Shown: piece after piece, positions 26,490 through 62,440 of the stretch
Numbering within the stretch: the stretch's first letter is position 1
How the letters are laid out: each line of letters starts with the position of its first letter
Assembly (NCBI GenBank): GCA_018303845.1
Contig: JAGVXH010000004.1
Span: 261,165 to 325,164 of the forward strand
Direction of reading: 5' to 3'
DNA length: 64,000 nucleotides
Source of the DNA: Candidatus Pacearchaeota archaeon
Lineage (GTDB): Archaea > Nanobdellota > Nanobdellia > Pacearchaeales > GW2011-AR1
Position numbers and translations under genes: made by a program
The notes under the pieces: model-generated
Seen by the model: the letters and a program-made list of their open reading frames with translations, nothing else
What the model was told of the DNA's origin: nothing
Databases searched by the model: none

Positions 26490-27299
26490 TTACTTTGTCC
26501 CAGAAAGCTTCTTCTTCAGTTTATTCGCCAAACTCAAACTTTTTTCTCCGCCTGCTTTCTTCACAACCTTCTTCACAACCTTCTTCACAACCTTCTTCAC
26601 AACCTTCTTCACAACCTTCTTCACAACCTTCTTCTCTTCTTTTTTGCTATCGGCAATATTTTTTCTAGCAACAGCCCTAGCAGTTTTAATTAAATCAGTT
26701 TTTTCTTTCTTCTCCTTATCTAATTTAGACTCGGCTCTCTTCCTGGAAGTTTCCGATTTCTTCCTAACAACTTCAAGCTCCCCATGAATCAAATCCAAAT
26801 TCTTTTTAATTCGAGCAATTTTCATTTTAACTTCACGAATAGGTTTTGTATTATCACTTAATTCATAAATATCTGCACATTCTTCACAGCTAAACCCATG
26901 CTCCAAAGCTTTCTCCTCGCCAACTTCAATATCACAAGACTTACAAACATAAAACCGCTTCGTTTCTCGACTACCAAGTGCTCCTTCAAGCGATGCAATT
27001 TTTCCAATCAAAGAACTCTCTAGCTTTGCCAAGCATTTTTCCGCATCTAATGTCCAGTAATAAATATACCAACCTTTCCTCTTATCTTTTTTTCTAATAA
27101 ATGAAACCAAATTATCAGCCGATAATTTATATAAAATATTTCTAACTTGATTAATCGTCAACTCCATTTTTTTTGCAATCAAAAATTCATTAACATCTTT
27201 CTTCCTAAATAAAATCTCGACAATCCTACCAGTTCCCTCTCCGGCCATTTCCTCGACGAGATCATGTAGAAGTTTAACTTGCATTTCAAACAAAATCAA
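26490..27299 (-). CDS. tfe: transcription factor E, alpha subunit (TFIIE-alpha homolog)
   Basis: N-terminal winged helix (EFLIAKKMELTINQVRNILYKLSADNLV..RKGWYIYYW) and Zn ribbon (C-K-S-C...C-E-E-C). The C-terminal K/V-rich tail contains a 12-nt repeat. Confidence 0.8.
   Translation of the reverse strand: MILFEMQVKLLHDLVEEMAGEGTGRIVEILFRKKDVNEFLIAKKMELTINQVRNILYKLSADNLVSFIRKKDKRKGWYIYYWTLDAEKCLAKLESSLIGKIASLEGALGSRETKRFYVCKSCDIEVGEEKALEHGFSCEECADIYELSDNTKPIREVKMKIARIKKNLDLIHGELEVVRKKSETSRKRAESKLDKEKKEKTDLIKTARAVARKNIADSKKEEKKVVKKVVKKVVKKVVKKVVKKVVKKAGGEKSLSLANKLKKKLSGTK
26557..26628. repeat. 6 perfect copies of the 12-nt unit ttcttcacaacc, encoding (VVKK)6 in the TFE tail
   Basis: Direct reading of the sequence. 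Confidence 0.95.
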
Positions 27300-32603: not shown

Positions 32604-35516
32604 TCACTCTAAATAAATAGAAGCCATTCCGGGTTTGGCTTTGTTCGCTCGTCCAGCAGGATCAATCTTTGTTGAATCATTCACCGCAAAAACCGCAACT
32701 TCTCTAATATCTAATTTCGAATCCCTAATATCTCGAAGAATTTTTTCTTTATCAATCTGACCAATCTCAAACGGCATCACATAAACATAAACTTTCTTTG
32801 TATCCGATTTTAAAATTCCTTTAATTCTCTCAACAATCTTTTCATTTAATCCTTCGCCACTTATCTTTTGCCCCTTATTCTTTATAACTTTCTCGTCAAC
32901 CTTAGGCCAACTGGCAACCGAAATCAATCCCTTTTCCCCAATCTTCTCCCACAATTCCTCCGCGACATGCGGGCAAATCGGAGCAATCAACTTCAAAAAT
33001 TTCAAGCCACTATCTTTAGAACATCCCTTCTCTAACTCCCCAAACAATTCCCGAATCTCAATCGTTGCCTTCCGATATTCAAAACTATCATAATAATTCC
33101 CAATATTTTTAATACAAAGATTCAGCTTAGAAACTAACTCCTCAGAATCTTTTCCGCCTACAAACGAATCATAAAACTCGAAGACTTTCTTAATGAAACG
33201 AGTAGCTCCAAGTATACCCTTTTCCGACCAATCAAAATCCTTATCCGGACTAGCAACCGAAATCAAAAACCATCGCGTTGCATCCACCCCGTATTTCTTC
33301 ATTGTCTCAATTGGCTCAACAACATTTCCAAGACTTTTCGACATCTTCCGCCCATCCTCAGCATGAAGCATCCCCTGATGAAACAACTTCAAAAACGGCT
33401 CGTCAAAATCAAGCGCACCAATATCCCTCAAAAACTTAACATAAAACCGAGAGTAAAGCAAATGCATACAAGCATGTTCAGCCCCGCCAATATAAACATC
33501 AACCGGGTTCCAATACTTCACCTTATCAAAATCAAAAATCTTTTTCGAATTTTTAGGGTCAGCATATCTCAAAAAATACCAACTCGAATTAACAAACGTA
33601 TCCATCGTGTCACTTTCTCGTCGACCTTTCCCACCACACTTCGGGCATTTACAATTCAACCACTCACTATTAGTCTCAAGCGGATTGCCCTTCCCAAACT
33701 TAACCTCCTTAGGTAAAACAACAGGCAAATCTTTTTCAGGGACTGGCACAGCACCACACCCATCACAATAAACAATCGGAATCGGCGTCCCCCAATATCT
33801 CTGACGACTAACTCCCCAATCTCGTAACTTAAAATTCACAACTCGCTTAGCATTACCTTTTCCCGCTAACCAATTCGTAATATCCGTCTTTGCTTCCAAG
33901 CTACTCATGCCACTAAACTGCTTAGACGCCATCAAAACACCATCATCGACAAACGCTTCTTTCCCGGTATACCTATTCTTAAAATCCAAAGGATCCTTAT
34001 TCGTAACAACCTGCCGAACAGAAATCCCATACTTCTTCGCAAACTCAAAATCCCTCTTGTCATGCGCCGGAACTCCCATAACCATACCACTCCCATAATC
34101 AGCCAAAACAAAATTTCCAATCCAAATCGGAACTCTCTCACCATTTGCCGGATTAACCGCATAACTCCCGCTAAAAACCCCTTCCTTCTCTCGCCTCTCA
34201 ATATCCTTCTCCGAAACAGAATTCATTTTCCTCAAATATTCATCAACAGCTAATCGCTGCTCATTCGTCACCAACTCATCTAACTTATCATGCCCAGCCG
34301 CAACAACCATAAACGTAACCCCAAAAATCGTATCCGGCCTAGTCGTAAAAACCTTCCAAACATTTCCAGATTCGCGCGCATTGGCGGAAATTTGTGGCTT
34401 AATCTTGGAGTCAATAAATTCTTTCACCTTCTTAACATCTCCATTATAAGGCACAACATCAATTCCCAAAGATTTAGCAGAGTCAACTCCATCCTCAGAG
34501 TGTTCAAAATAAACAACATTTTCTTTTTTCAAATTGAATTCCTCTAAAACTTTTTCATAATACTTAGGAGAACTCTTTTTCGGATTAAACTCCGTAGTAA
34601 AAATCTCATAATCCTTAACCTTCCCAAAAAACAAATCAAACTTACTTTTAGGAGCCATAGTCAAAACAATCTTCCTATTAGGCAAAGAATCCAAATAATT
34701 CTTCAACTCTTGATTAACGTTTCCTTTTTCATCAACCAAACAATGAACAGCATCAACTAAAATAACTTTATCTGTGCTAATCTGTGAAATCTGTGGCTCA
34801 CCCCCAGAAATTTCGAAAGAAATTTCCGTCCCTTCGCTTCGCCCAATCCAATTCCTCTGCATAGTCTTAGTCCTCTCAGGCCAGTCAATTCTTTCTAAAT
34901 CATTAAGCAACTCCTCAGCATATTCAGTCGTCCTAAAAAACCACTGCCGAAGCTTTCGAACCTCAACATCAGTATCCTCGTGTCTCCAGCATTTTCCTTC
35001 ATTGACCTGCTCATTCGCCAAAACCGTATCACACTTAGGACACCAATTTACCGAAGCTTCCTTTTGATAAGCCAACCCCTTTTCAAGCATCTTCAAAAAA
35101 ATCCACTGGTCCCACTTATAATATTCACTATTCGCAGTATTAACCATTCGTGACCAATCATAAGAAACACCAAGTGCTCTCTGTTGCTTTACAAAATTTT
35201 CAATCGCATCATTAGTATACTTCTCTGGGTCAACCCCAGCCTTAATCGCAGCATTTTCCGCAGGAAGCCCCAAAGCATCAAACCCCATAGGATGCAAAAC
35301 ATTGAAACCTTTCATAATCTTAAACCGAGCCAAAATATCTCCAATCGTATAATTCAAAGCATGTCCCATATGAAGCCCAGCCCCGGAAGGATAAGGAAAC
35401 ATTTCCAAAACATAAAATTTTTCTTTTCCAGAATCTTCACTAATCTCAAAAACCCTTTTCTCTTCCCAAGTCTTCTGCCACTTTTTCTCTATACTTACAA
35501 AATCAATTTCATCCAT
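32604..35516 (-). CDS. leuS: leucine--tRNA ligase, bacterial type, with an extra in-frame insert of about 143 aa
   Basis: PYPSGAGLHMGHALNY (HIGH), RNWIGRSEG, TTRPDTIFG, the CP1 editing region and KMSKS. 970 aa; the insert lies at 34368-34796 between RSEGTEISF and VFTTRPDT. Confidence 0.9.
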   Translation of the reverse strand: MDEIDFVSIEKKWQKTWEEKRVFEISEDSGKEKFYVLEMFPYPSGAGLHMGHALNYTIGDILARFKIMKGFNVLHPMGFDALGLPAENAAIKAGVDPEKYTNDAIENFVKQQRALGVSYDWSRMVNTANSEYYKWDQWIFLKMLEKGLAYQKEASVNWCPKCDTVLANEQVNEGKCWRHEDTDVEVRKLRQWFFRTTEYAEELLNDLERIDWPERTKTMQRNWIGRSEGTEISFEISGGEPQISQISTDKVILVDAVHCLVDEKGNVNQELKNYLDSLPNRKIVLTMAPKSKFDLFFGKVKDYEIFTTEFNPKKSSPKYYEKVLEEFNLKKENVVYFEHSEDGVDSAKSLGIDVVPYNGDVKKVKEFIDSKIKPQISANARESGNVWKVFTTRPDTIFGVTFMVVAAGHDKLDELVTNEQRLAVDEYLRKMNSVSEKDIERREKEGVFSGSYAVNPANGERVPIWIGNFVLADYGSGMVMGVPAHDKRDFEFAKKYGISVRQVVTNKDPLDFKNRYTGKEAFVDDGVLMASKQFSGMSSLEAKTDITNWLAGKGNAKRVVNFKLRDWGVSRQRYWGTPIPIVYCDGCGAVPVPEKDLPVVLPKEVKFGKGNPLETNSEWLNCKCPKCGGKGRRESDTMDTFVNSSWYFLRYADPKNSKKIFDFDKVKYWNPVDVYIGGAEHACMHLLYSRFYVKFLRDIGALDFDEPFLKLFHQGMLHAEDGRKMSKSLGNVVEPIETMKKYGVDATRWFLISVASPDKDFDWSEKGILGATRFIKKVFEFYDSFVGGKDSEELVSKLNLCIKNIGNYYDSFEYRKATIEIRELFGELEKGCSKDSGLKFLKLIAPICPHVAEELWEKIGEKGLISVASWPKVDEKVIKNKGQKISGEGLNEKIVERIKGILKSDTKKVYVYVMPFEIGQIDKEKILRDIRDSKLDIREVAVFAVNDSTKIDPAGRANKAKPGMASIYLE

Positions 35517-35798: not shown

Positions 35799-36013
35799 CT
35801 ACATCAACCTCCTTACAAATTCATTACGAAAAAAATATTGAGCAACCATCTTAAAATAAAACAGTCGCAGCTCTAGGCGAGTGCGACACTGGCGACCAGC
35901 AACAAAACCAAAACGAAGTTACCATTCGACATATTCATAATAATAAATAACAATCAAACTTTAAAAAACTTATCTTAAGAAAAATATATAACCTATGTTA
36001 CTCTTAAACTCTA

Positions 36014-36580
36014 ATGAAAATCCTAACAATCCTCGCCCATCCTTCAAAAGACTCCTTTAATCATGCTCTTTTACGGCAATATATCAAAGGGACAAAACAA
36101 AATCACCAAGTAAAAACAATATACTTAGGCGACCTAAAATTCGACCCAATCCTCCACGAAGGTTACAAAAAAATCCAAACGCTAGAACCCGACTTACTAG
36201 ACGCCCAAAAAAAAATTCTCTGGGCAGACAAAATCACAATCTTTACCCCAATCTGGTGGACAACCCCTCCGGCACTCTTTAAGGGATTTATCGAAAGAAC
36301 CCTCCACCCAACTTTTGCCTTTAATAATCCTAGTGGCAATAAATACGAAAAACTCCTAAAGGGAAGAAACGCAAGAATAATCGCAACAATGGACGCTCCA
36401 CTTTTATATTATAAATTTATAGTCGGCGACCCACTCTACAAGCAAATGAAAGGCACCCTCTCCTTTTGCGGAATATCTCCAATCCAAAAAACCTACATCT
36501 CTAGTCTAAAATTTAAAACAAACAAACAAACAAACGAAATACTAAAACAAATTTACAAAGTAGGTTTAAACGAAAAATAA
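36014..36580 (+). CDS. flavodoxin-like-fold NAD(P)H dehydrogenase (quinone) family protein
   Basis: MKILTILAHPSKDSFNHALL N-terminus and IFTPIWWTTPPALFKGFIER, typical of the Flavodoxin_2 / NQO-like family. Confidence 0.75.
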   Translation: MKILTILAHPSKDSFNHALLRQYIKGTKQNHQVKTIYLGDLKFDPILHEGYKKIQTLEPDLLDAQKKILWADKITIFTPIWWTTPPALFKGFIERTLHPTFAFNNPSGNKYEKLLKGRNARIIATMDAPLLYYKFIVGDPLYKQMKGTLSFCGISPIQKTYISSLKFKTNKQTNEILKQIYKVGLNEK

Positions 36581-36655
36581 AATCCGTGTAAATCTCGCGT
36601 AATCTCGTGACCAACAACACTATCTAATTTCTAATCTCTATCGCCTAAAATCTAG
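36578..36655. repeat. AATCCGTGT-type motif run followed by a TAATCTC-type run
   Basis: aaaatccgtgtaaatctcgcgtaatctcgtgacc at 36578-36612, and ctaatttctaatctctatcgcctaaaatctag at 36624-36655. Confidence 0.85.
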
Positions 36656-36797
36656 TCAAGCCTCTTCTCCAATTCCCTAACCCTATCTCTCAAATACATA
36701 GCCCTCTTCACCAATCCAACAACTCCGCCGCTTCTCGCATATTAGCCTCCAACTCAATAATCACATTAGCAACCTCAGCCTTAGGAATCCCCTTAAC
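36652..36797 (-). pseudogene. diverged duplicate of the uvrB 3' end (UVR-domain codons) with a frameshift
   Basis: The minus strand reads KGIPKAEVANVIIELEANMREAAELLD, then a frameshift, then KRAMYLRDRVRELEKRLD*. The intact UvrB has SIPKAEVKNVIIELEADMREAAEMLDFERAMYLRDRVRELNKRLEK*. Confidence 0.8.
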
Positions 36798-37403: not shown

Positions 37404-37407
37404 CATA

Positions 37408-37441
37408 GAAAGAGCCCGCGCCCACAAGCAAAGGCTCTTTC
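37408..37441 (+). terminator. stem-loop followed by a T-run downstream of the small ORF
   Basis: gaaagagcc (37408-37416) pairs with ggctctttc (37433-37441), and tttttt follows within 10 nt. The role is inferred. Confidence 0.35.
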
Positions 37442-37547
37442 GACCCATTTTTTATTTCAAGAAAATTATATTCTTTAAGATACTATATTAAATTAGATAT
37501 TTTAACAGTCCTTTTTATTTCCCAAATCAACATATTCCACCAACCTC

Positions 37548-37584
37548 AAAAGTCCGTGCCAGTCCATGAAGTCCGTGGTTAAAA
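37548..37584. repeat. AGTCCGTGN x3 motif run directly behind the uvrB stop
   Basis: aaaagtccgtgccagtccatgaagtccgtggttaaaa. The uvrB stop codon is at 37585-37587. Confidence 0.85.
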
Positions 37585-40227
37585 TTATTTCTCTAATCTC
37601 TTGTTAAGTTCCCTAACCCTATCCCTCAAATACATCGCCCTCTCAAAATCAAGCATCTCCGCAGCCTCCCTCATATCAGCCTCCAACTCAATAATAACAT
37701 TCTTCACTTCCGCCTTAGGTATACTCTTAGTATCCTTAATCTCAATCTTCTTATCTCTTATAGGTTTTACAATCGTCATCGGCGTAATCCCATGTTTCAA
37801 ATTATAAGCAATCTGTTTCGCCCGCCTTCTCTCAGTTTCCTTAATCGCTTCCTTAATCGACCCAGTAACAACATCAGCATACAAAACAACTTTAGCCTCC
37901 GAATTCCGAGCAGCCCTCCCAATTATCTGAATCAAACTTCTCTTATCTCGCAAGAACCCCTCCTTATCAGCGTCAAGCACCCCAACAAATCCAATCTCCG
38001 GAATATCAATTCCCTCTCGCAATAAATTAATCCCAACAAGTACATCAAACTTACCCAACCGTAGCTCCCGCAAAATCTCCGTCCTCTCAAACGTATCAAT
38101 CTCCGAATGCATATACCGACACTTAACCCCATTCTCCCCCAAAAAATCCGTCAACTCCTCCGCCATCCTCTTAGTAAGAGTCGTAAGCATAACCCGAAAC
38201 CCCTTCTTAACAGCCTTATCAATCTCAACCAAACAATCCCTCACCTGCCCCCCATAAGATTCGCGTCCATTCGCGGCTAAAATCTCACCCAGCAACTCAG
38301 AAAACTCCATGTTCTCACCATTCCCCCTGTTTGTAAAATGTCCCCTATCTTTCAATACAACAGACTTAACACCAAGCGCCTTAGAATAAATTTTAACAGA
38401 TTCTCTAATGCTCTTAGCATCATCAGAAGATTCAATTATAACAATGTCAGAAACTCTATTTGAAATTTTTTTATCAATCTTAAAATCATAAAACTCCTCA
38501 GCCTCCCATTCCTCCGTCCCCTTGTTCTTACAAGCAGCCGCAACCAAAATCAACTTCTTAACCTTCCTCTTAGTTTGCCCAAGCCACCGAACCAAAAAAG
38601 CCGCACCGGCACTAGCCCCAACCAAAACAGAATTCTCATCAACATCAATCTTTTCAAACTCTGCCTTCCACTTCTCATAATCAGGCTTCCAATTCTCAGG
38701 CATCAAAGGAGTAAATACGGCAGCACCTTTTTTCTCAAGTTCTGACTTAATCCAAGGAAACCAATTTCTTTCATTCTGCTCAGGCAAGCTATACCTCTTC
38801 ATATTCTCTCTATCATTAGGATTGGCCCCATGCACAATAACAACATTCCCCAAGCCCCCAGCGCAGCTGAGCTCTTCCACCGAAGGTGAGCCCTTCCGAC
38901 CACGAGCCCTTCCAGCAGAGCTGAGCCCCTCCGTAGAACTAATAGGTCGAATTTCGACCTCGGGATCAATTAGTCCTGTAGGCCTAATTATCTGTTCTAC
39001 GACGTTAGAAGAGCAACGCTCTTCGTATTCCCCAGGCGTCGCACTCACAAAAACAGTCGAATTCCCCTTCATATACTTTTCAAACTCACCAAACTTCAAC
39101 GGCCGATTGTCATATGCCGAAGTCAACCGAAATCCATAATCAATCAAATTCTTCTTCCGTGCCCGGTCCCCATTAAACATACCACCAACCTGCGGAACCG
39201 ACCGATGACTCTCGTCAATAATAAAAAGAAAATCCCCCTTAGGAAAATAGTCAAGCAAACAAAAAGCCTGTTCACCCTCACGCCTTCCATCAAAATGCCG
39301 CGAATAATTTTCAATTCCCTTGCAAGTCCCAGTCTCCTTCAACATCTCCAAATCATAAAGCGTCCTCTGTTTCAACCGATGTTTAACCAACTCATCGCTA
39401 ATCTCAGCCAAGTCAATCTTCAACTGTTCCCGAATTTCCAAAGCAGCCTTATCAAAAACACTCTCTGGCACAACATAATTACGCGCAGGCCAAACATGAA
39501 AATACTTCATATCACTAAGCTTCTCACCAGTCACCTTATCAATCTCAAAAATTTTCTCAACCTCATCTCCAAAAAATTCAATCCTAATAATATTTTCCGA
39601 ATATCCAGGAATAAAATCAATAACATCTCCCTTAACTCTGAAGCGCCCTTGAATTAAATCCAAATCATTCCGTTCAAAAGCTCCACTAACCAACTTCCCA
39701 ATAAAATCCTTCCTTCCAATCTTCTCGCCAACTTCAACAGGAAACCCCATAGACCGAAACATTTTAGGGTCACTCATTCCATAAATACAACTAACACTCG
39801 CAACAACAATAACGTCACTTCGAGTCAAAAGACTAGCAACAGTCGCATGCCTCATCATCTCAATTCGCGGATTAATCGCCGAATCTTTCTCAATATACTG
39901 ATCCTTCGCAGGCAAATAACTCTCCGGCTGATAATAATCATAATACGAAATAAAATACTCAACCCGGTTCTCAGGAAAAAACTCCCGCATCTCCTCATAA
40001 AGCTGAGCCGCAAGTGTCTTATTATGGGCCAAAATCAAAGTAGGCCTCCCAACCTTCGCAATAACATTCGCCATCGTAAAAGTCTTCCCTGACCCAGTCA
40101 CACCCAAAAGAGTCTGCATATTCTTACCTTCTCGGATCCCATCAACTAAACCAGCAATCGCCACAGGCTGGTCCCCAGTAGGTTTAAACTTCGATTTCAA
40201 CTTAAACTTTCGCTTTTCAATTTCCAT
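37585..40227 (-). CDS. uvrB: excinuclease ABC subunit B with an in-frame alpha/beta serine-hydrolase domain insert of about 229 aa
   Basis: GVTGSGKTFTMA, YYDYYQPE, DESH, TTLTKRMAEELT, the helicase C motifs and a UVR domain. 880 aa versus the usual ~660; the insert lies at about 38254-38943. Confidence 0.9.
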   Translation of the reverse strand: MEIEKRKFKLKSKFKPTGDQPVAIAGLVDGIREGKNMQTLLGVTGSGKTFTMANVIAKVGRPTLILAHNKTLAAQLYEEMREFFPENRVEYFISYYDYYQPESYLPAKDQYIEKDSAINPRIEMMRHATVASLLTRSDVIVVASVSCIYGMSDPKMFRSMGFPVEVGEKIGRKDFIGKLVSGAFERNDLDLIQGRFRVKGDVIDFIPGYSENIIRIEFFGDEVEKIFEIDKVTGEKLSDMKYFHVWPARNYVVPESVFDKAALEIREQLKIDLAEISDELVKHRLKQRTLYDLEMLKETGTCKGIENYSRHFDGRREGEQAFCLLDYFPKGDFLFIIDESHRSVPQVGGMFNGDRARKKNLIDYGFRLTSAYDNRPLKFGEFEKYMKGNSTVFVSATPGEYEERCSSNVVEQIIRPTGLIDPEVEIRPISSTEGLSSAGRARGRKGSPSVEELSCAGGLGNVVIVHGANPNDRENMKRYSLPEQNERNWFPWIKSELEKKGAAVFTPLMPENWKPDYEKWKAEFEKIDVDENSVLVGASAGAAFLVRWLGQTKRKVKKLILVAAACKNKGTEEWEAEEFYDFKIDKKISNRVSDIVIIESSDDAKSIRESVKIYSKALGVKSVVLKDRGHFTNRGNGENMEFSELLGEILAANGRESYGGQVRDCLVEIDKAVKKGFRVMLTTLTKRMAEELTDFLGENGVKCRYMHSEIDTFERTEILRELRLGKFDVLVGINLLREGIDIPEIGFVGVLDADKEGFLRDKRSLIQIIGRAARNSEAKVVLYADVVTGSIKEAIKETERRRAKQIAYNLKHGITPMTIVKPIRDKKIEIKDTKSIPKAEVKNVIIELEADMREAAEMLDFERAMYLRDRVRELNKRLEK
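38869..38932. repeat. 4 copies of GAGC(C/T)C(T/C)TCC at 16-19 nt spacing, in frame at the N-terminal border of the UvrB insert
   Basis: Copies start at 38869, 38888, 38904 and 38923. On the minus strand they encode EGLSSAGRARGRKGSPSVEELS. Confidence 0.9.
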
Positions 40228-40270
40228 AAAAAAGCAAGAAATTCAGACTATAAGAAATTTTTGTTAACAA

Positions 40271-41908
40271 TCACTCCCGAATCTTCTTGCCCCGAAGCAA
40301 CCTCTGATAACCAATCGCAAACCGATGTGCCTCATCCCGAATCTCAATCAACAATTTTAAAGCCCCACTCTTTTTATCTAGCCTAACCTCTCTTCCCAAA
40401 CCCCCATGCCCCCATACCCCCAAATCCCCATCTTGCCGTTTTGGCAAGATTACAGTCTCTTCGGCCTTAGCCAAACCAATAACCTCAATTCCCAATTTCA
40501 ATTCCTCCAAAACCCCAACCGCAACCCCAAGTTGCCCCTTCCCTCCATCAACAACAATCAAATCCGGGGCCTCCATTTTTTCATCCCGAGCTTCCGAACT
40601 CCCAATCCCCCGAACTTCCGCCAAGCGATGATATCGTCGCGAGATAACTTCCCTCATCGCAGCATAATCGTCATTAACATCCCCGCCACGAATTCGAAAC
40701 TTCCGATAATTACTTTTATCCGCAACACCATCCCTAAACTGAACCATCGAAGCAACAACATCAGTCCCACTCAAATGCGAAACATCAAAACACTCAATCA
40801 CTCTAGGCAACTTAATCAATCCCAACTTCTCCTTCAACTCCTTAACCTTATCAACATTCCCAAAAACCGCCAAATCAACATTCTTCTTCACAAGCTCCAA
40901 TAGCTTAACTTTCTCTCCCATCTTTGGCACAACAACTTTTCCGCCAAGTCTCTCAATAAATTCCTTCAATCCAGAATCAACATCTTCGGGCAACACAACC
41001 TCTTTTGGACAATCATAGTCCGAATAAAACTGAACCAAAAATTCCTCCAAAAAATTAGGACTCCAATCAAACTCAAAAAACTGCTTATTCTCTAGTATAC
41101 CTCTTCTAGCATTAAACAAAATCAAGTATACCTTATCTCCAGAAATAATCCAATTAATAAAATCCTCATCATACTTCTTATCCCTCTCCATCTTCTGCTT
41201 CTCACCCAAATCCTTAATCGCCCTAATCTGCTCTCTCAAAATAAGCGCTCTCTCAAAATCTTTGTCAATAGAAAATCCTTTCATTCTCTTCGACAAAATC
41301 TCAACAACAGCCTTAGTCTTGCCCTTCAAAACCATTTCGGCATTCTTAACATTCTCCAAATAATCCGTCTTGCTAATCTTCCCCTCGCACGGTCCAGAAC
41401 AAAGTCCAATCTGAAACCTCATACAAACTTTTTTAGGCAACTTTACGCAAGTTCGAATCTTAAAAATTTTCCTAAGCGCATGCAAAACATAATCTCTCGA
41501 CATCCCAGAAACAAACGGCCCATAAAATCTCGAAGCTCTTTCTAATTTCGAATCTCTAATCTCTAATCTCTTTCGTGCAATCAAAAGTCGCGGGAACATT
41601 TCTCCCGTGACTTGCACGAACGCATACCTCTTGCTATCCTTCAAGTCAATATTATATTTAGGCTTATACTTCTTAATCAAATTATTCTCCAATATCAAGG
41701 CCTCAACCTCAGAATCCGTAACAACAAATTCAACAGAATCAATATGTGAAACCAAAACATTAGTCTTAACAGACTCGTGCTCTTTAGCAAAATAACTCTT
41801 AACTCGGTTTACCAAACTCTTCGCTTTTCCAACATAAATAACTTTATCCTTAGAATCCTTAAACAAATAACATCCAGGATTTTTAGGAATTTCCTTTAGA
41901 TTAATCAT
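40271..41908 (-). CDS. uvrC: excinuclease ABC subunit C
   Basis: GIY-YIG N-terminus ([24 protein letters not shown]), a UVR-like segment, the endonuclease domain (ECFDVSH) and C-terminal IRDEAHRFAI. Contains two repeat-derived in-frame inserts. Confidence 0.9.
   Translation of the reverse strand: MINLKEIPKNPGCYLFKDSKDKVIYVGKAKSLVNRVKSYFAKEHESVKTNVLVSHIDSVEFVVTDSEVEALILENNLIKKYKPKYNIDLKDSKRYAFVQVTGEMFPRLLIARKRLEIRDSKLERASRFYGPFVSGMSRDYVLHALRKIFKIRTCVKLPKKVCMRFQIGLCSGPCEGKISKTDYLENVKNAEMVLKGKTKAVVEILSKRMKGFSIDKDFERALILREQIRAIKDLGEKQKMERDKKYDEDFINWIISGDKVYLILFNARRGILENKQFFEFDWSPNFLEEFLVQFYSDYDCPKEVVLPEDVDSGLKEFIERLGGKVVVPKMGEKVKLLELVKKNVDLAVFGNVDKVKELKEKLGLIKLPRVIECFDVSHLSGTDVVASMVQFRDGVADKSNYRKFRIRGGDVNDDYAAMREVISRRYHRLAEVRGIGSSEARDEKMEAPDLIVVDGGKGQLGVAVGVLEELKLGIEVIGLAKAEETVILPKRQDGDLGVWGHGGLGREVRLDKKSGALKLLIEIRDEAHRFAIGYQRLLRGKKIRE
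40395..40450. repeat. degenerate (CCCCCAWA)4 run followed by an 8-bp hairpin, in frame in uvrC
   Basis: cccaaacccccatgcccccatacccccaaatcccc at 40395-40429. Stem atcttgcc (40430-40437) pairs with ggcaagat (40443-40450). Encodes ILPKRQDGDLGVWGHGGLG. Confidence 0.9.
41541..41570. repeat. TAATCTC-type run, in frame in uvrC
   Basis: tctaatttcgaatctctaatctctaatctc encodes RLEIRDSKLE. This is inserted between the conserved FPRL..R and YFGPF segments. Confidence 0.85.
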
Positions 41909-43296: not shown

Positions 43297-46092
43297 TTAC
43301 ATAACCTTCCCTAAAAATTTCCCCGTCCATGATTTCTTATTCAAGACCACCTCTTCCGGAGTCCCAACTGCCACCACAGTCCCCCCACCTTCCCCGCCCT
43401 CGGGCCCCAAATCAATCACATAATCCGCAGTCTTAATCACATCCAAATTATGCTCAATCACAACCATCGTATTCCCCTTCTCAACCAAACTATCAATCAC
43501 TCGAAGCAACTTCTTAACATCATGAAAATGAAGCCCAGTCGTAGGTTCATCCAAAATATACAAAGTCCGACCAGTTCCCCTTTTCGCCAACTCTTTAGTT
43601 AACTTAATCCTCTGACTCTCTCCACCAGAAAGCGTCGTAGAACTTTGCCCGAGCTTAATATATTCCAGCCCCACCTTTTTCAAAGTCTCAATCTTCCCAT
43701 GAATAGAAGAAACATTTTCAAAAATTACCAATGCCTCTTCTACGCTCATATCCAAAACATCCGCAATATTTTTTCCCTTAAATAAAATATCCAAAGTGTC
43801 CCGATTATACCGCTTTCCCTTACATTCCTCACATTCAACATAAACGTCCGGCAAAAAATGCATCTCAATTTTAATCGTCCCATCGCCCTTACATCTTTCA
43901 CAACGACCTCCACTGACATTAAACGAAAACCTTCCAGGCCCATATCCCCGAATCTTCGCCTCTTTAGTCGAAGCAAACAACTTCCTAATTTCATCAAATA
44001 CTCCAACATAAGTAGCAGGGTTCGACCGTGGCGTCTTCCCGATCGGCGACTGATTAATCACAATCACCTTATCAATTTTCTCATCCAAAGAAATTTCCTT
44101 ATGCTTCCCAACCAAAATCTTCGATCCCTTATTCAACTTCTTCTCCATTCCCTTATACAAAATCTCATTCATTAGCGTAGACTTTCCAGAACCCGAAACT
44201 CCAGTTATACAATTTAAAATTCCAATCGGAATATTAACATCAATATTTTTCAAATTATTTTCCGAACATCCTTTCAGCCGAATATACTTATTACTCGCTC
44301 GCCTTCGAAGTGGCGTCTCAACCTTCAACTCACCAGAAAGATATTTCCCAGTCAAACTCTTTTCATTCTTCTCAATTTCCTTCGGAGTTCCAGCCGCAAC
44401 AATTTCGCCCCCATGAATCCCGGCACCAGGCCCAACATCAACAACATAGTCCGCAGCCCGAATCGTATCCTCGTCATGCTCAACAACAATCAAACTGTTT
44501 CCCAAATCCCGAAGCCGATGCAGTGTCTCAATTAACTTAGCATTATCCCTTTGATGCAAACCAATCGACGGCTCATCTAAAACATACATCACTCCCATCA
44601 GGTTCGCCCCAATCTGCGTAGCAAGCCGAATTCTCTGCGCCTCACCCCCACTCAAACTCCCAGCCGTTCTAGACAAATTCAAATATCCAAGTCCAACATT
44701 ATTCAAAAAACTAAGCCGACTTCGAATCTCCTTCAAAATCAAATTCGCAATCTCCATCTCTTTATCAGAGAGCTTCAAGTTCTCAAAAAACTCCGCACAC
44801 TTCCCAATCGACATCTCAGTCACATTCACAATATTCTTATCCAATATTTTAATTGACAAAATCTTTTCTTTCAGTCGCTTCCCTTCACAACTAGGACAAG
44901 TCTTAGACCTCTGAAACTTCTCAAGCATCCGTCTTCGATAATCACTATCAGTTGACTTATACAATCTCTCCGACTGCGGAATCAAACCCTCCCATCCTTC
45001 TTCCATATTCATATTCGCTCCGCTAGACCACTTCGCAAAAATCGGCCTCTTGTCGCCATACATCAAAATCTCATATTGCTTCTCACTCATGTTACAAACC
45101 GGCTTCATAATATTAAACCCAAAACTTTTCCCTACCGCACCCAACTGCTGAATCCTCCAAGAATTATCCATCTTCCCATAAAGCTTAATCGCCCCGTCCG
45201 CTATCGTCTCATCCTCGTCAGGAATAATCAACTCAGGATCAAACTCAGTCTTAACGCCAAGCCCATGACATTCCTCACACGCGCCAAAAGGACTATTGAA
45301 CGAAAACATTCTTGGCTGCAACTCTTCAAAAGCAAGCCCACACTCAGGACAAGCCATGACAGTAGAATAAATATGCAACTTCCCCTTCTCATCAAGAACT
45401 TCAATCATCCCACCTTCGCTAACCTTCGCCGCATTCTCAATCGCCTCACTAAGTCGTCCAGAGTCAGTCACATTAACTCTATCAACAACAATAGCAATAT
45501 CATGTTTCACATATCTCCCCATCTTAATCGTCTCATCAGTCCGATAAATCACACCATCAACTCGAACCCGCGCCCAACCATCCCGATTCAAACCCAAAAT
45601 AACCTGCTCATGCGTCCCCTTCTTGTCAACAACAACAGGCGCCAAAATAGTAACATTCCCCTCAACCTCATTCCCAATCCGGTCACTAATCCTTTGAGGA
45701 GAACTCGACTCAATTTTACAACCATGCTCAGGGCAATAAGCAGTCCCAACTCTAGCAAAAAGCAATCTTAAATAATCATAAATCTCAGTCACAGTCCCAA
45801 CAGTTGACCGCGGATTTTTACTCGTCGTCTTCTGCTCAATAGAAATAGCAGGGCTAAGCCCCTCGATAGAATCGACATCAGGCTTATTCATAACGCCCAA
45901 AAACTGCCGAGCATAAGCCGAAAGCGATTCAACATAACGCCTCTGCCCTTCAGCATAAAGCGTATCAAATGCGAGAGTAGACTTCCCCGAACCAGACAGC
46001 CCAGTAATAACTACAAACTTCTCTCGTGGCAAATCAATGCTCACATTTTTCAAATTGTGTTCTCGTGCTCCCTTAATTCGTATCTGTTTCAT
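43297..46092 (-). CDS. uvrA: excinuclease ABC subunit A
   Basis: Two ABC modules (GLSGSGKSTLAFDT and GVSGSGKSTL), LSGGE signatures and Zn-finger Cys pairs. Start placed at MKQIRIKGAREHNLKN; the tracked ORF extends to 46122. Confidence 0.9.
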   Translation of the reverse strand: MKQIRIKGAREHNLKNVSIDLPREKFVVITGLSGSGKSTLAFDTLYAEGQRRYVESLSAYARQFLGVMNKPDVDSIEGLSPAISIEQKTTSKNPRSTVGTVTEIYDYLRLLFARVGTAYCPEHGCKIESSSPQRISDRIGNEVEGNVTILAPVVVDKKGTHEQVILGLNRDGWARVRVDGVIYRTDETIKMGRYVKHDIAIVVDRVNVTDSGRLSEAIENAAKVSEGGMIEVLDEKGKLHIYSTVMACPECGLAFEELQPRMFSFNSPFGACEECHGLGVKTEFDPELIIPDEDETIADGAIKLYGKMDNSWRIQQLGAVGKSFGFNIMKPVCNMSEKQYEILMYGDKRPIFAKWSSGANMNMEEGWEGLIPQSERLYKSTDSDYRRRMLEKFQRSKTCPSCEGKRLKEKILSIKILDKNIVNVTEMSIGKCAEFFENLKLSDKEMEIANLILKEIRSRLSFLNNVGLGYLNLSRTAGSLSGGEAQRIRLATQIGANLMGVMYVLDEPSIGLHQRDNAKLIETLHRLRDLGNSLIVVEHDEDTIRAADYVVDVGPGAGIHGGEIVAAGTPKEIEKNEKSLTGKYLSGELKVETPLRRRASNKYIRLKGCSENNLKNIDVNIPIGILNCITGVSGSGKSTLMNEILYKGMEKKLNKGSKILVGKHKEISLDEKIDKVIVINQSPIGKTPRSNPATYVGVFDEIRKLFASTKEAKIRGYGPGRFSFNVSGGRCERCKGDGTIKIEMHFLPDVYVECEECKGKRYNRDTLDILFKGKNIADVLDMSVEEALVIFENVSSIHGKIETLKKVGLEYIKLGQSSTTLSGGESQRIKLTKELAKRGTGRTLYILDEPTTGLHFHDVKKLLRVIDSLVEKGNTMVVIEHNLDVIKTADYVIDLGPEGGEGGGTVVAVGTPEEVVLNKKSWTGKFLGKVM

Positions 46093-46243
46093 GGTGTCTC
46101 CCAAAGAATAAACAATATCCAAAGAGAAATACGACCTTTAAATTTGTTCCGTTTACAATATTATCAACAACCTAAAGGGTTAAAAATCAAAATTTCCCCA
46201 AACAATAAGGTGATCAGCCACAGACTGTTTCTGTAAATTCAAA

Positions 46244-61531: not shown

Positions 61532-62440
61532 TTATTCCTTCCTTCCCATAATCCTCTCAATATCTTCAGTCGTCTTCGCTCCAACCAAATCCCCACGCAA
61601 CTTCTTCCCGTCCGCTAACCCCTTCGTGAAATTCATCGCCTGATATTTAACCTGCCGAAAATAGAGCCCATATTTCTTAGCCAATTTCAAATACTCTCCA
61701 AATCCAACCTCGTCCCCCTTTAGTCCGTGTTCGTCCGTGTTCGTCCGTGTGCCATTTTTTAAGAGTTGACCAGATTTATTTTCAAGCCCCAAGAAAATTC
61801 CAGGTCTCCCGATAGCCTCTCGTCCAATCATCACAAAATCAAAATCCCTCAAAATCTTCTCCACATCATTAAGATTGGAAACCCCACTAAAAATAACAGG
61901 CATACTAGCCTTCTCCTTAATCTTCAAAGCAAAATCATAATCAACTTCTCCGCTATACCCCTGACTCAAAGTCCGAGCATGAATACAAACAGCACTCACT
62001 CCAATCTCCTCACAAATCCTCAAAATATCAAAGGCCAAATCACTCTTCCGAATTTTAACAGTCAATGGTTTTCTAGTACAACTTCTCATCACTCTCAAAA
62101 TATCTTCAATTACTTCCAAATCATTTAAACAAGCTCCATGTTTCAATTTCTTAGACAACTTCGACGGACACCCCAAATTAAAATCCCAACCCGAAACCCT
62201 AGAATCATATTCCTTCATAAAACTCTTAATCCCACGAGAAGAATTCCCAAACAACTGCAAAACAGGCTTATCATCTAAATCAAGTTTAGCCTTAGATAAA
62301 GCCGAAGTCATCCCAGTCCAAGTCAACCCACATCCAGCCCGCCTACAAAGCAACCGAAAAGCAATATCATTAGGCTCAAGCATCGGAGCAAGAAAAACTC
62401 TGGCCTTCAATTTCAAATTCCCAAGTCTATAATCCATCAC
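61532..62440 (-). CDS. dus: tRNA-dihydrouridine synthase
   Basis: LAPMLEPNDIAFRLLCRR.G, DFNLGCP, VKIR and IHART motifs. Carries the repeat-derived insert GTRTNTDEHGLKG. Confidence 0.8.
   Translation of the reverse strand: MMDYRLGNLKLKARVFLAPMLEPNDIAFRLLCRRAGCGLTWTGMTSALSKAKLDLDDKPVLQLFGNSSRGIKSFMKEYDSRVSGWDFNLGCPSKLSKKLKHGACLNDLEVIEDILRVMRSCTRKPLTVKIRKSDLAFDILRICEEIGVSAVCIHARTLSQGYSGEVDYDFALKIKEKASMPVIFSGVSNLNDVEKILRDFDFVMIGREAIGRPGIFLGLENKSGQLLKNGTRTNTDEHGLKGDEVGFGEYLKLAKKYGLYFRQVKYQAMNFTKGLADGKKLRGDLVGAKTTEDIERIMGRKE
61721..61753. repeat. (TCGTCCGTGT)-type x3 run, in frame in dus
   Basis: Direct reading gives tagtccgtgttcgtccgtgttcgtccgtgtgcc. Confidence 0.9.

What the first reader, a model, noticed from the sequence alone, without database searches (positions are those of the whole stretch)
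38254..38943. Apparently intact serine-hydrolase domain inserted in frame in the middle of UvrB
UvrB is 880 aa here against a typical ~660. About 229 extra codons (residues ~430-658) sit between the conserved RPTGLIDPEVEIRP segment and the conserved GQV.D...EI.....R(V)..TTLTKRMAEELT segment. They read VVIVHGANP..NWFPWIKSELEKKGAAVFTPLMP..VLVGASAGAAFLVRWL..VIIESSDDA..LKDRGHF. This matches the motif order of the YdeN/RBBP9 alpha/beta serine-hydrolase family, with the GxSxG nucleophile, Asp and His all present. There are no stops, no frame change and no intein-type junctions. The N-terminal border is a Gly/Ser/Arg linker encoded by four GAGCCCTTCC repeats. The C-terminal border (ILAANGRESYGG) is encoded by TTTAGCC-GCGAATGGA-CGCGAATCT, the same motif family that sits behind stop codons elsewhere in the window. 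I do not know of a described repair helicase carrying a whole hydrolase domain.
Basis: partly seen in the sequence, partly recalled or inferred. Interest (0 to 1): 0.8.

Follow-up and report, generated by a model that had tools for sequence, protein, structure and literature searches.

The report
Hydrolase gene cassette nested inside UvrB
A complete small serine-hydrolase enzyme is built, in frame, into a surface loop of the DNA-repair helicase UvrB of an ultra-small (DPANN) archaeon, and it behaves as an exchangeable cassette that also turns up inside several other housekeeping proteins, which gives a natural system for watching how one protein domain gets inserted into another.

Summary
uvrB (window 37585-40227, minus strand) is one 880-codon ORF. 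Residues 429-659 (window 38251-38943) are an extra segment. It consists of a disordered 32-residue linker, a complete 190-residue RBBP9/YdeN-type serine hydrolase (Pfam PF06821, triad Ser539/Asp602-603/His630) and a 9-residue linker.

It is not an assembly artefact. Eleven other archaeal UvrB proteins from independent assemblies carry the same family at the same loop.

New findings:
- Between this window and its closest relative, the uvrB flanks differ at 107 of 648 codons, but the insert is 100% identical. It forms a 713-nt perfect block, the longest in about 20 kb of synteny.
- Among other alleles the flanks are 70-88% identical, but the hydrolase cores only 24-63%. Several inserts are closest to free-standing hydrolases, and insert-bearing alleles are not monophyletic.
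- The same domain sits inside LeuRS, Kae1/TsaD, EngA and a glycosyltransferase elsewhere.
- The linkers are made from the genome's dispersed 9-10-nt repeats, which otherwise sit behind stop codons.
- LeuRS in this window carries a HAD-like insert with the same linker motif.

Best reading: a recombination-exchanged hydrolase cassette in a permissive loop, giving a bifunctional protein whose hydrolase acts autonomously. A repair-specific role and a dedicated mobility mechanism remain open.

The parts
37585..40227 (-). uvrB, one continuous 880-codon ORF including the insert
   Evidence: ORF. UvrB equivalog, 940 bits against a cut-off of 743, in two stretches; the AF2 model matches solved UvrB structures with TMt 0.90-0.96. 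Walker A GSGKT is at 40081-40095, DESH at 39205-39216, the beta-hairpin YYDYYQPESY at 39916-39945 and motif VI QIIGRAARN at 37903-37929.
38944..38985 (-). Conserved UvrB segment RPTGLIDPEVEIRP (aa 415-428). This is the last UvrB element before the insert; in the model the strand covers residues 423-427.
38848..38943 (-). N-linker, aa 429-460 (ISSTEGLSSAGRARGRKGSPSVEELSCAGGLG), predicted disordered
   Evidence: pLDDT is below 50 for residues 432-458; nucleotide sequence. The linker varies in length and sequence among the 12 alleles.
38869..38932 (-). Four copies of GGAAG[G/A]GCTC (coding strand) at 19/16/19-nt spacing inside the N-linker
   Evidence: TRF period 19, 3.7 copies
38278..38847 (-). 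Hydrolase module, aa 461-650 (NVVIVHG ... FSELLGEIL). It corresponds to a whole free-standing ~190-aa gene minus its start and stop codons.
   Evidence: PF06821, 42.5 bits; free-standing homologues of 188-204 aa, up to 59% identical; free-standing genes start MNVVIVHG and end ...ELLGEIL*; pLDDT 92.7, TM 0.78-0.86 to RBBP9 and YdeN; 21 of 23 family-conserved positions are kept.
38611..38613 (-). Nucleophile Ser539 in G-A-S-A-G
   Evidence: A Ser is present in all 12 insert-bearing UvrB.
38419..38424 (-). Asp602/Asp603 (SSDDA), the acid of the triad
   Evidence: aligned with the RBBP9 STDD segment; coordinates.
38338..38340 (-). His630 (RGHF), the triad histidine
   Evidence: (invariant column)
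38251..38277 (-). C-linker, aa 651-659 (AANGRESYG). It is encoded by TTTAGCC-GCGAATGGAC-GCGAATCT, which belongs to the dispersed repeat family.
38243..38955 (-). 713-nt block that is 100% identical to the uvrB of the closest relative (L001), although the flanks differ
37540..37582 (-). Repeat element directly behind the uvrB stop codon (TTTTAACCACGGACTTCATGGACTGGCACGGACTTTT)
36581..36795 (-). Decayed remnant of an older uvrB 3' end (it would end ...RVRELEKRLD*, the C-terminus of the relative), followed by its spacer and repeat element
   Evidence: 87% identical to the L001 uvrB end plus spacer
40271..41908 (-). uvrC, immediately upstream on the same strand
   Evidence: The same synteny with a called UvrC is seen in L001, L003 and L009.
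43297..46122 (-). uvrA

Best explanation
What it is (shown). A whole gene for an RBBP9/YdeN-type serine hydrolase (PF06821) lies in frame inside uvrB. It sits in the loop between the strand VEIRP and the first helix of helicase domain 3. The start and stop codons of the gene are replaced by linkers. The protein is translated as one chain. The UvrB core keeps all its helicase motifs and is under purifying selection. The hydrolase is a separately folded globule on a roughly 30-residue disordered tether and a short second tether.

How it got there (inferred). In one clade of DPANN archaea (Woese-/Pacearchaeota-like) this loop is enlarged and bracketed by ISP...(S)YGG. It acts as a permissive landing pad. 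Its content ranges from 10-27 residues of repeat-derived filler to a full hydrolase. The linkers come from the genome's dispersed 9-10-nt tandem repeats (TTTAGCC + (C)ACGGAT-type units), which normally sit behind stop codons. The cassette is gained, swapped and probably lost by recombination, with breakpoints at its borders. It spreads between uvrB alleles through the conserved flanks. In the two relatives whose context I fetched, the free-standing gene lies directly after leuS, a few kb from uvrB in this synteny.

How it works (inferred). The product is a two-enzymes-in-one protein. UvrB does ordinary nucleotide excision repair together with the adjacent uvrA and uvrC. The tethered hydrolase acts autonomously. 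By analogy with RBBP9, it would hydrolyse an amino-acyl or N-terminal amide/ester bond. It would not be a working part of the repair reaction.
For: Real and translated:
- Single ORF.
- Twelve alleles with the domain at the same loop, from independent assemblies.
- No pairing between the two junctions.

Intact enzyme:
- Pfam score above the gathering cut-off.
- RBBP9 and YdeN hits by sequence and by fold, TM 0.78-0.86.
- 21 of 23 family-conserved positions retained.

UvrB intact:
- Equivalog score.
- Fold match TMt 0.90-0.96.
- The flanks show 83 synonymous against 24 non-synonymous codon differences versus L001.

Tethered globule: pLDDT is below 50 for residues 432-458 and 653-657, and 85-97 within the domain.

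Cassette behaviour:
- No differences in 232 codons against 107 of 648 in the flanks. The 713-nt perfect run is the longest in about 20 kb.
- Flanks are 70-88% identical but cores only 24-63%. P0127 has 87% flank identity and 31% core identity.
- The nearest relatives of several inserts are free-standing genes.
- Insert-bearing alleles are interleaved with insert-less ones, with bootstrap support of 75-100%.
- All members of the core clade have enlarged ISP... loops.

Repeat-derived linkers.

Not repair-specific:
- The same domain is nested in LeuRS (several sites), Kae1/TsaD, EngA, GT2 and YdjC.
- The free-standing copies sit directly after leuS.

RBBP9 chemistry: PMC8866121.
Against: - The same family has been placed at exactly this UvrB loop in at least four lineages, and at a second site in another UvrB (P0259). 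That recurrence could equally mean selection for a UvrB-linked function.
- No enzymatic, transcript or peptide data exist.
- The direction of events in the core clade (gain versus loss) is unresolved. NJ support inside that clade is weak, 11-49%.
- The identical block could result from replacement of the flanks rather than movement of the cassette. The uvrB 3' remnant shows that at least the 3' flank was replaced.
- The link to leuS rests on only two fetched contexts.
- A tested similarity between a free-standing gene's 3' flank and the C-junction was not significant.
- Some inserted copies look degenerate: P0166 has lost the GxSxG glycines and keeps 13 of 23 conserved positions. Intactness here may therefore reflect recent acquisition rather than selection in place.
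Confidence: 0.6

Rival explanations
1. Repair-coupled function. The tethered hydrolase is part of the repair reaction. For example, it could trim peptide remnants of DNA-protein crosslinks, or remove amino-acyl or ester adducts, so that UvrABC can process the lesion.
For: - The PF06821 domain recurs at the same UvrB loop in lineages whose nearest relatives lack it, and at a second UvrB site in P0259.
- The triad is conserved in the 12 alleles.
- RBBP9 is an aminopeptidase that needs a free alpha-amine (PMC8866121).
- A screen linked RBBP9 to Fanconi-anaemia-deficient cells (PMC9839743, title and abstract only).
- uvrA, uvrC and a UvrD-like helicase lie in the same window.
Against: - The same domain is nested in LeuRS, Kae1/TsaD, EngA, GT2 and YdjC, so the association is not specific to repair.
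- The linkers are long, disordered and not conserved. This argues against a fixed geometry relative to the DNA.
- Very different family members (24-38% identical) occupy the site.
- Close relatives do without the domain (P0128, P0131, P0132).
Confidence: 0.15
2. Dedicated mobile element. The hydrolase cassette is a selfish, in-frame-inserting element with its own targeting mechanism. In lifestyle it would resemble an intein, but without splicing. It would spread among permissive loops of essential genes, with the repeat arrays acting as its recombination sites.
For: - A perfectly identical 713-nt block with sharp borders lies inside diverged alleles.
- Many unrelated housekeeping hosts carry the domain, with precise module borders from N(V/C)(V/I)I(V/I)HG to FPELLxEI.
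- Presence and absence are polymorphic among close alleles.
- Repeat-derived sequence lies at the junctions here. In bacterial-type hosts the junction peptides read IPAEAGIQ/H; my reading of these as palindromic-repeat-derived rests on my own knowledge.
- uvrB fragments next to full genes in L007, L010 and this window suggest repeated allele replacement.
Against: - The cassette encodes no nuclease, integrase or transposase. It is only the hydrolase.
- No near-identical copy was found at two different loci. The closest copy in another host is 60% identical.
- There are no terminal inverted repeats or target-site duplications.
- No flank tract is co-converted next to the block.
- Ordinary homologous recombination between uvrB alleles explains the one recent event.
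Confidence: 0.2
3. The segment is removed before the protein functions, either as an archaeal bulge-helix-bulge intron at the RNA level or as an intein-like element at the protein level.
For: Archaea splice BHB introns, and this window has an intron-bearing tRNA. Related UvrB genes do carry a true intein, but at the Walker A site (P0166 and P0173).
Against: - No Hint or intein domain was found.
- The insert begins with Ile, not Cys or Ser, and ends SYG|G with no His-Asn followed by Cys, Ser or Thr.
- The two junctions do not pair: cofold z = -0.8, and the duplex energy equals that of shuffles.
- The insert is a complete, well-conserved enzyme read in the host frame in 12 alleles, with linkers of many lengths.
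Confidence: 0.03
4. Assembly or binning chimera that joins uvrB halves to an unrelated hydrolase gene.
For: The window appears to come from a metagenome-type genome. Repeats lie at both junctions.
Against: - The identical junctions occur in an independent NCBI MAG and a Logan assembly.
- Eleven further alleles with the same architecture come from different samples and assemblers. One is on 18 contigs of up to 783 kb.
- Frame is preserved on both sides.
Confidence: 0.01

Closest known systems
Canonical UvrB (UvrABC excinuclease helicase subunit; e.g. Bacillus caldotenax 1T5L/2FDC, 3UWX)
   Same: Both flanks together make a complete UvrB. The equivalog score is well above the cut-off. All helicase motifs, the beta-hairpin, the UvrA-interaction domain and the C-terminal UVR domain are present. 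The model superposes on solved UvrB structures with TMt 0.90-0.96. uvrC and uvrA are adjacent.
   Different: None of the matched solved UvrB chains (504-621 residues) has anything at this loop. Standard archaeal and bacterial relatives have a 4-residue loop (PxEG). Here the loop holds 231 residues.
RBBP9 / YdeN serine hydrolases (Pfam PF06821; PDB 2QS9, 7OEX, 1UXO)
   Same: Same fold (TM 0.78-0.86), same motif order and the same Ser-Asp-His positions. The size matches that of a whole free-standing member.
   Different: About 25% identity to the solved members. The domain is embedded in another protein rather than free-standing. The nucleophile elbow reads G-A-S-A-G instead of the family's usual G-H-S-x-G, and LVAP is replaced by LVAA. 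The substrate is unknown.
Inteins (including the Walker-A intein seen in related UvrB, P0166 and P0173)
   Same: An in-frame foreign segment inside a conserved housekeeping protein. Presence and absence are polymorphic among close alleles. The segment is sharply delimited and behaves as a unit in recombination.
   Different: There is no Hint fold, no splicing residues and no homing endonuclease. The segment stays in the mature protein as a folded enzyme.
Rickettsia palindromic elements and other intragenic MITE/REP-type repeats that are translated in frame (review PMC10969869)
   Same: Short dispersed repeats that usually lie between genes are also found inside ORFs. There they are read as surface peptide: the linkers here, 'NGTRTNTDEHG' in the Dus gene, and the LeuRS linker.
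   Different: The repeats here are short direct tandem 9-10-mers, not ~150-bp palindromic elements. They flank a whole captured enzyme gene instead of being the entire insertion.
Nested (domain-in-domain) architectures, such as the CP1 editing domain inside class I aminoacyl-tRNA synthetases
   Same: A complete globular domain is spliced into a loop of a parent domain, with both retaining their folds.
   Different: Those insertions are ancient, fixed and functionally integrated. This one is lineage-restricted, polymorphic and exchangeable, and it is shared by unrelated hosts.

Membership tests
UvrB (excinuclease ABC subunit B) | Full-length match to the curated UvrB equivalog model above its cut-off | tested here: met
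   NF003673 scores 940.5 bits (cut-off 743) and TIGR00631 scores 904 bits (cut-off 750). Each matches in two stretches split at residue 430.
UvrB (excinuclease ABC subunit B) | SF2 helicase motifs (Walker A, DExH, motif VI), the beta-hairpin aromatic cluster, the UvrA-interaction domain and the C-terminal UVR domain | tested here: met
   GSGKT, DESH, QIIGRAARN and YYDYYQPESY are located. Pfam UvrB_inter, Helicase_C, UvrB and UVR all match.
UvrB (excinuclease ABC subunit B) | UvrB three-dimensional fold | tested here: met
   The AF2 model has mean pLDDT 84.8. Foldseek to 1T5L, 3UWX and 6O8G gives TMt 0.94-0.96.
UvrB (excinuclease ABC subunit B) | Damage-dependent ATPase and pre-incision complex formation with UvrA and UvrC | not testable with these tools
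   Only indirect evidence: uvrA and uvrC are adjacent, and the flanks show about 3.5 synonymous differences per non-synonymous one versus the closest allele.
PF06821 Ser_hydrolase (RBBP9/YdeN) | Profile match above Pfam's gathering score | tested here: met
   42.5 bits against 22 on the insert alone, profile positions 11-155 of 172.
PF06821 Ser_hydrolase (RBBP9/YdeN) | Compact lid-less alpha/beta-hydrolase fold like RBBP9 and YdeN | tested here: met
   The insert-only model has pLDDT 92.7. The top PDB matches are 7OEX, 2QS9, 1UXO and 9FCR, with TM 0.77-0.86 and rmsd 2.3-2.5.
PF06821 Ser_hydrolase (RBBP9/YdeN) | GxSxG nucleophile, Asp and His in family order | tested here: met
   G-A-S539-A-G, SSD602D603 and GH630F align to the RBBP9 HSSG, STDD and GHF segments. 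The His column is invariant and the Ser column at least 90% conserved in 85 sequences.
PF06821 Ser_hydrolase (RBBP9/YdeN) | Catalytic activity (serine hydrolase or aminopeptidase) | not testable with these tools
   Needs activity-based probe labelling and substrate assays.
Intein | Hint/splicing domain | tested here: not met
   There is no Hint or intein Pfam match in the 880-aa protein down to E = 0.1. By contrast, the relatives P0166 and P0173 carry PF14890 at another site.
Intein | A Cys/Ser/Thr as first residue, and a terminal His-Asn followed by Cys/Ser/Thr | tested here: not met
   The insert starts with Ile429 and ends ...ESYG|GQV.
Archaeal bulge-helix-bulge intron | The two exon-intron junctions pair to form the helix with bulges | tested here: not met
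   Cofold of the two junction segments gives z = -0.8 against shuffles, and the duplex energy equals the shuffle mean.
Translated intragenic dispersed repeats (RPE/MITE-like) | The same short repeat family occurs both between genes and in frame inside ORFs | tested here: met
   The head motif has 6 hits against 0.67 expected. They lie in the uvrB and LeuRS linkers and behind three stop codons. The 10-mer array lies inside the Dus ORF and in the uvrB linkers of relatives.
Translated intragenic dispersed repeats (RPE/MITE-like) | Terminal inverted repeats, target-site duplication or a palindromic structure, as in a MITE | tested here: not met
   Only short direct tandem units are present. No significant inverted repeats flank the insert.

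The most novel reading that the evidence does not exclude
The PF06821 hydrolase is the cargo, or the body, of a previously unrecognised kind of genetic element in ultra-small archaea and bacteria. It would be a non-splicing, in-frame 'domain cassette' that moves between free-standing positions and permissive loops of essential genes (UvrB, LeuRS, Kae1/TsaD, EngA, glycosyltransferases). It would move by recombination at dispersed short-repeat arrays, persist because the host protein tolerates it, and spread among alleles as a discrete unit. The HAD-like insert in this window's LeuRS, which carries the same linker motif, would be a second cargo of the same process.
Probability: 0.3. Interest if true: 0.9.

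Novelty: new variant of a known kind. Interest (0 to 1): 0.72.

Why it matters
Domain insertion is a major route to new protein architectures, yet intermediates are almost never caught. This locus and its relatives show the whole series side by side:
- the free-standing gene;
- the same gene nested in frame, with linkers that still look like inter-genic repeat DNA;
- alleles with different family members in the same slot;
- alleles with only a repeat-derived 'footprint' loop;
- standard alleles with a 4-residue loop.

That makes the mechanism and the fitness cost of domain insertion directly testable.

For DNA-repair research, it identifies a loop at the start of UvrB domain 3 that tolerates a 230-residue globular insert. 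This is useful for tagging and engineering. It also raises a testable question: whether a tethered amino-acyl/peptide hydrolase contributes to handling protein-DNA adducts.

For the biology of DPANN and CPR organisms, the tight link of this hydrolase family to leuS (adjacent gene, and multiple nested sites around the editing domain) suggests an unrecognised partner of LeuRS.

Tried and rejected
1. A strict period-10 search, CG[AG]AT-N5-CG[AG]AT, found only the uvrB linker itself. The motif family became visible only with looser patterns.
2. A metagenome scan for the back-translated elbow peptide VGASAGAAFLVRW gave 0 hits. A scan for the 31-nt 10-mer array gave one hit, the orthologous Dus gene of a relative. 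Neither produced a new copy of the cassette.
3. The third protein search, using the junction-spanning 318-aa query, did not list the UvrB fusions at all, presumably because of candidate pre-selection. It could not be used for a census, but it did reveal the Kae1/TsaD host.
4. The genome-collection scan found only two species representatives with the insert and did not find the source genome.
5. I suspected that the 3' flank of a free-standing hydrolase gene (L012) is homologous to the uvrB C-junction (CGAAGGATATGG). The score of 25 does not exceed the best shuffles (27), so I dropped the claim.
6. A BHB intron and an intein were both rejected.
7. An assembly chimera was rejected.
8. dN/dS inside the insert could not be measured. 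The only close pair has no differences in the insert, and all other pairs are saturated at 60-70% nucleotide identity.
9. The palindrome GGTCGAA-A-TTCGACC at the 5' border is broken in the relative and lies in conserved UvrB codons, so I treated it as chance.
10. No tool returns model coordinates. The position of the insert relative to the DNA, UvrA and UvrC surfaces could therefore not be measured.


Full report
**1. The observation**

The region holds one uninterrupted ORF on the minus strand, 37585..40227, of 880 codons. The curated UvrB equivalog models match it far above their cut-offs, but in two stretches broken at residue 430. Pfam finds the UvrB-specific domains on both sides and, between them, PF06821 Ser_hydrolase.

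Exact borders are as follows:
- RPTGLIDPEVEIRP is aa 415-428 and GQVRD is aa 660-664.
- The extra segment is aa 429-659, window 38251-38943.
- On the insert alone PF06821 scores 42.5 bits against a gathering score of 22.

PDB sequence search gives RBBP9 (E = 1e-6) and YdeN (2e-5). G-A-S539-A-G, SSD602D603 and GH630F align to the catalytic Ser75, Asp138 and His165 positions of RBBP9.

An AlphaFold2 model of the insert with 85 homologues has pLDDT 92.7. Its best PDB matches are RBBP9 and YdeN, with TM 0.77-0.86.

Their 19/16/19-nt spacing shows a DNA-level repeat read through in changing frames.

**2. It is real, and UvrB is intact**

The full-length search returned eleven other UvrB proteins that carry PF06821:
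- P0121 at 97% identity;
- P0122-P0127 at 69-73%;
- P0129, P0130 and P0133 at 64-66%;
- P0166 at 57%.

In the alignment the domain sits at the same loop in all of them. They come from NCBI, JGI, ENA and Logan assemblies. P0126 is on 18 contigs of up to 783 kb, and P0121 is in an NCBI MAG and a Logan assembly. A chimeric assembly is therefore excluded.

Names attached to relatives are 'archaeon', Candidatus Woesearchaeota and Candidatus Pacearchaeota. The window also has an intron-bearing tRNA seen only by Rfam. Together these point to a DPANN archaeon.

The full-length model has mean pLDDT 84.8:
- a confident UvrB core;
- a confident hydrolase globule, residues about 459-652;
- very low confidence for residues 432-458 and 653-657, which are the linkers.

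The model superposes on solved UvrB structures with TMt 0.90-0.96. Walker A, DESH, motif VI and the beta-hairpin aromatic cluster are all present. uvrC lies immediately upstream and uvrA 3 kb further on.

Against the closest allele, the UvrB flanks differ at 83 synonymous and 24 non-synonymous codons. The host gene is therefore under purifying selection with the insert in place.

**3. The insert is a whole gene minus its start and stop**

Searched alone, the insert finds mostly free-standing proteins of about 190 aa from DPANN archaea and Patescibacteria, at up to 59% identity. The two whose DNA I fetched begin MNVVIVHG and end ...FPELLGEIL* or ...EEILK*.

In uvrB the module runs from N461VVIVHG to ...SELLGEIL650. 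Only the first Met and the stop codon are missing.

The window copy keeps 21 of the 23 positions that are at least 85% conserved in free-standing members. Free-standing sequences average 21.7.

**4. It behaves as a cassette**

(a) *The closest pair.* Window and L001 (GCA_053534935.1) are syntenic over about 20 kb at 90-98% nucleotide identity.
- Within uvrB, 107 of the 648 flank codons differ, but none of the 232 insert codons do.
- The longest perfect match in the whole shared region is 713 nt, window 38243-38955. That is the insert plus at most 3 codons on each side. The next longest run is 342 nt.
- Differences are dense right up to both borders.

(b) *Other alleles.* Among the 12 insert-bearing alleles the flanks are 70-88% identical, but the hydrolase cores only 24-63%. 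P0127 groups with the window allele at 100% bootstrap and has 87% flank identity, yet its hydrolase is 31% identical and has different indels.

(c) *Relation to free-standing genes.* Several inserts are closer to free-standing genes than to any other UvrB insert:
- P0125 is 67% identical to P0019, against at most 57% to another insert.
- P0130 is 55% identical to P0366, against about 34% to the closest other UvrB insert.

(d) *Flank-only NJ tree.* Insert-bearing alleles are not monophyletic:
- P0129 pairs with P0151, which has a 4-residue loop (100% bootstrap).
- P0130 pairs with P0141/P0142 (76%).
- P0166 pairs with P0173 (75%).
- In the core clade (72% support) alleles with the cassette are interleaved with alleles that have only a 10-27-residue loop.
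- All of those loops begin (G/P)I(S/T)P, whereas standard relatives have a 4-residue loop PxEG.
- Support inside the core clade is weak, so gains and losses cannot be counted.

(e) *A remnant of the older allele.* About 0.8 kb downstream of uvrB the window holds a decayed copy of a uvrB 3' end. Its reading frame would end RVRELEKRLD*, which is the C-terminus of the L001 allele. It is 87% identical to the L001 uvrB end plus spacer.

So at least the 3' flank of the window allele was replaced by recombination. The identical block may therefore reflect replaced flanks, a moved cassette, or both. Either way the cassette borders are recombination breakpoints. uvrB fragments next to complete genes in L007 and L010 point the same way.

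**5. The linkers come from a dispersed repeat family**

In relatives the linkers are visibly tandem 10-mers:
- CACGGATGAACACGGATGAACACGG in L008;
- CACGGACGAACACGGACGAACACGGAC in L005;
- similar arrays in L009;
- the same kind of array in the insert-less loops of L006 and L007.

They translate as TRMNTDEHG-like peptides.

In the window, the C-linker TTTAGCC-GCGAATGGAC-GCGAATCT belongs to this family. The head motif TTTAGCCRCRRAT has 6 hits with at most 1 mismatch against 0.67 expected:
- the uvrB C-linker;
- the LeuRS insert linker;
- the element right behind the uvrA stop;
- two elements behind the UvrD-like helicase stop;
- one at the end of the SNF2 gene.

Further copies lie directly behind the uvrB stop, behind the old uvrB remnant, and in frame inside the Dus gene, where they read NGTRTNTDEHG. 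The Dus copy is nucleotide-identical to the L005 uvrB linker and is conserved in a relative.

The closest described parallel is repeats translated in frame, such as Rickettsia palindromic elements (PMC10969869). The units here are short direct repeats without inverted ends.

**6. The phenomenon is wider than UvrB**

The exhaustive representative search with the insert found the same domain, at 31-52% identity, inside much longer proteins. Pfam scans and inspection of the borders identify the hosts:
- LeuRS, at several different positions around and within the editing domain;
- a GT2 glycosyltransferase;
- EngA/Der, between its two GTPase domains;
- YdjC;
- terminal fusions to NUDIX;
- another UvrB (P0259), with the domain about 20 residues further upstream;
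- Kae1/TsaD (P0389, 60% identical to the window cassette).

In nearly all of them the module runs from N(V/C)(V/I)I(V/I)HG to FPELLxEI.

The two free-standing relatives whose context I fetched lie immediately after leuS, overlapping or within about 50 nt of it. They sit in the same leuS-alaS-TFIIE synteny that lies next to uvrB in this window.

The window's own LeuRS (32604..35516) has no PF06821. Instead it carries an extra segment of about 140 residues at the GTEISFEI|...|WKVFTTRPDT hinge, where other genomes carry PF06821.
- That segment has a HAD_2 match (25.4 bits against a cut-off of 23.8).
- It has a C-linker ANARES (ANGRES in L001).
- This is the same peptide and DNA motif as the uvrB C-linker AANGRES.

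No second PF06821 copy exists in the 64 kb.

**7. How it most likely works**

*Shown:* one polypeptide; an intact UvrB core; an intact-looking hydrolase on flexible tethers; exchange of the cassette as a unit; repeat-derived linkers; many unrelated hosts.

*Inferred:* the loop at the start of helicase domain 3 is a permissive site that became enlarged in one archaeal clade. Hydrolase genes are placed, swapped and probably deleted there by recombination involving the repeat arrays and the conserved uvrB flanks. The product is bifunctional, with the hydrolase acting on its own substrate.

RBBP9, the best-studied relative, removes N-terminal hydrophobic or aromatic residues. It needs a free alpha-amine and was proposed to cleave amide, ester or thioester bonds to such amino acids (PMC8866121). 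Combined with the leuS linkage, this suggests an amino-acyl/peptidyl hydrolase whose home context is translation, not repair. This is a lead, not a test.

The main rival is a repair-linked role. Its support is the repeated placement of this family at the same UvrB loop. A dedicated mobility mechanism is the most novel reading not excluded, but the cassette encodes nothing except the hydrolase. Removal as an intron or intein is contradicted.

**8. Novelty**

Searches of the held literature for UvrB with a hydrolase domain, for DPANN/Patescibacteria domain insertions and for archaeal UvrABC found nothing that describes this. JGI's automatic annotation does label such proteins 'UvrB / predicted alpha/beta hydrolase family esterase', so the sequences are public but apparently undescribed.

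I rate it a new variant of a known kind: a nested-domain architecture combined with translated repeats. There is a moderate chance that the underlying process is something new.

Noticed in passing
window 34383-34811 (-), inside leuS 32604..35516: LeuRS carries its own in-frame insert of about 140 residues at the hinge before the editing domain (GTEISFEI|...|WKVFTTRPDT). It has a HAD_2 match (25.4 bits against 23.8) and a C-linker ANARES, encoded by the same TTAAGCC...GCGCGAATC motif as the uvrB C-linker. Other genomes carry the PF06821 hydrolase at this very site.
   Followed up: partly
window 43256-43287, 56452-56569, 36580-36607, 37540-37582 (all - strand); 61723-61750 inside the Dus ORF 61532..62440: A dispersed family of short tandem repeats: a TTTAGCC head followed by 9-10-nt (C)ACGGAT(TA/GAA) units, often ending in a T-run. 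It sits just behind stop codons of minus-strand genes (uvrA, uvrB, the UvrD-like helicase and the old uvrB remnant). It also occurs in frame inside the dihydrouridine synthase gene as NGTRTNTDEHG. Whether these are terminators or mobile repeats is unknown.
   Followed up: partly
window 36581-36795 (-): A pseudogene remnant of a uvrB 3' end whose frame would end RVRELEKRLD*, the C-terminus of the closest relative's allele. It is separated from the current uvrB stop by about 0.8 kb of AT-rich DNA with no long ORF. The relative has only 72 nt between uvrB and the flavodoxin-like gene. This indicates replacement of the 3' part of uvrB.
   Followed up: partly
L010 4891-5247 and 9895-10197; L007 2850-3347: Short uvrB fragments (ResIII N-terminal pieces, and a UvrB/UVR C-terminal piece) lie next to complete uvrB genes in two related genomes. 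This suggests recurrent allele replacement at this locus.
   Followed up: no
P0166 and P0173 (relatives, alignment A1 columns 1-560): Related archaeal UvrB genes carry a true intein in the Walker A P-loop (GSGK|...|TFT), with LAGLIDADG and HTH domains. P0166 has both that intein remnant and the hydrolase insert.
   Followed up: no
P0145, P0123, P0124, P0127, P0133 (alignment A1 columns 695-775): A second variable loop in UvrB, after ...EVG. It holds short Gly-rich inserts in several alleles and a run of about 70 residues of GDGSGVT-type heptad repeats in a Pacearchaeota allele.
   Followed up: no
window 47424-47583 (+): A tRNA detected only by Rfam (44.3 bits) and spanning 160 nt, so it carries an intron of about 90 nt. 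ARAGORN in bacterial mode found no tRNA in the 64 kb.
   Followed up: no
window 28443-28672: A 55-nt unit repeated 4.2 times at 98% identity between two genes. Its copy number appears to differ from the relative L001.
   Followed up: no
window 26557-26634: A perfect 12-nt tandem repeat (TTCTTCACAACC, 6.5 copies) inside the ORF 26490..27299 (-), which would encode a repeated tetrapeptide.
   Followed up: no
window 35000-42000: Strongly negative GC skew on the plus strand throughout the region (-0.06 to -0.66, mostly -0.3 to -0.6). It includes the stretch covering the plus-strand gene 36014..36580, so it is not simply a coding-strand effect.
   Followed up: no
L011 3988-5174: Two PF06821 hydrolase genes in tandem, with overlapping stop and start, directly after leuS in a related genome. 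The first (P0001) is the closest free-standing relative of the window's insert.
   Followed up: partly
P0241 and P0381 (LeuRS with nested hydrolase): In these LeuRS hosts the junction peptides read IPAEAGIQ / IPAEAGIH. By my own recollection these are translations of a common palindromic inter-genic repeat, which would extend the 'repeat-derived linker' pattern beyond this archaeal lineage.
   Followed up: no
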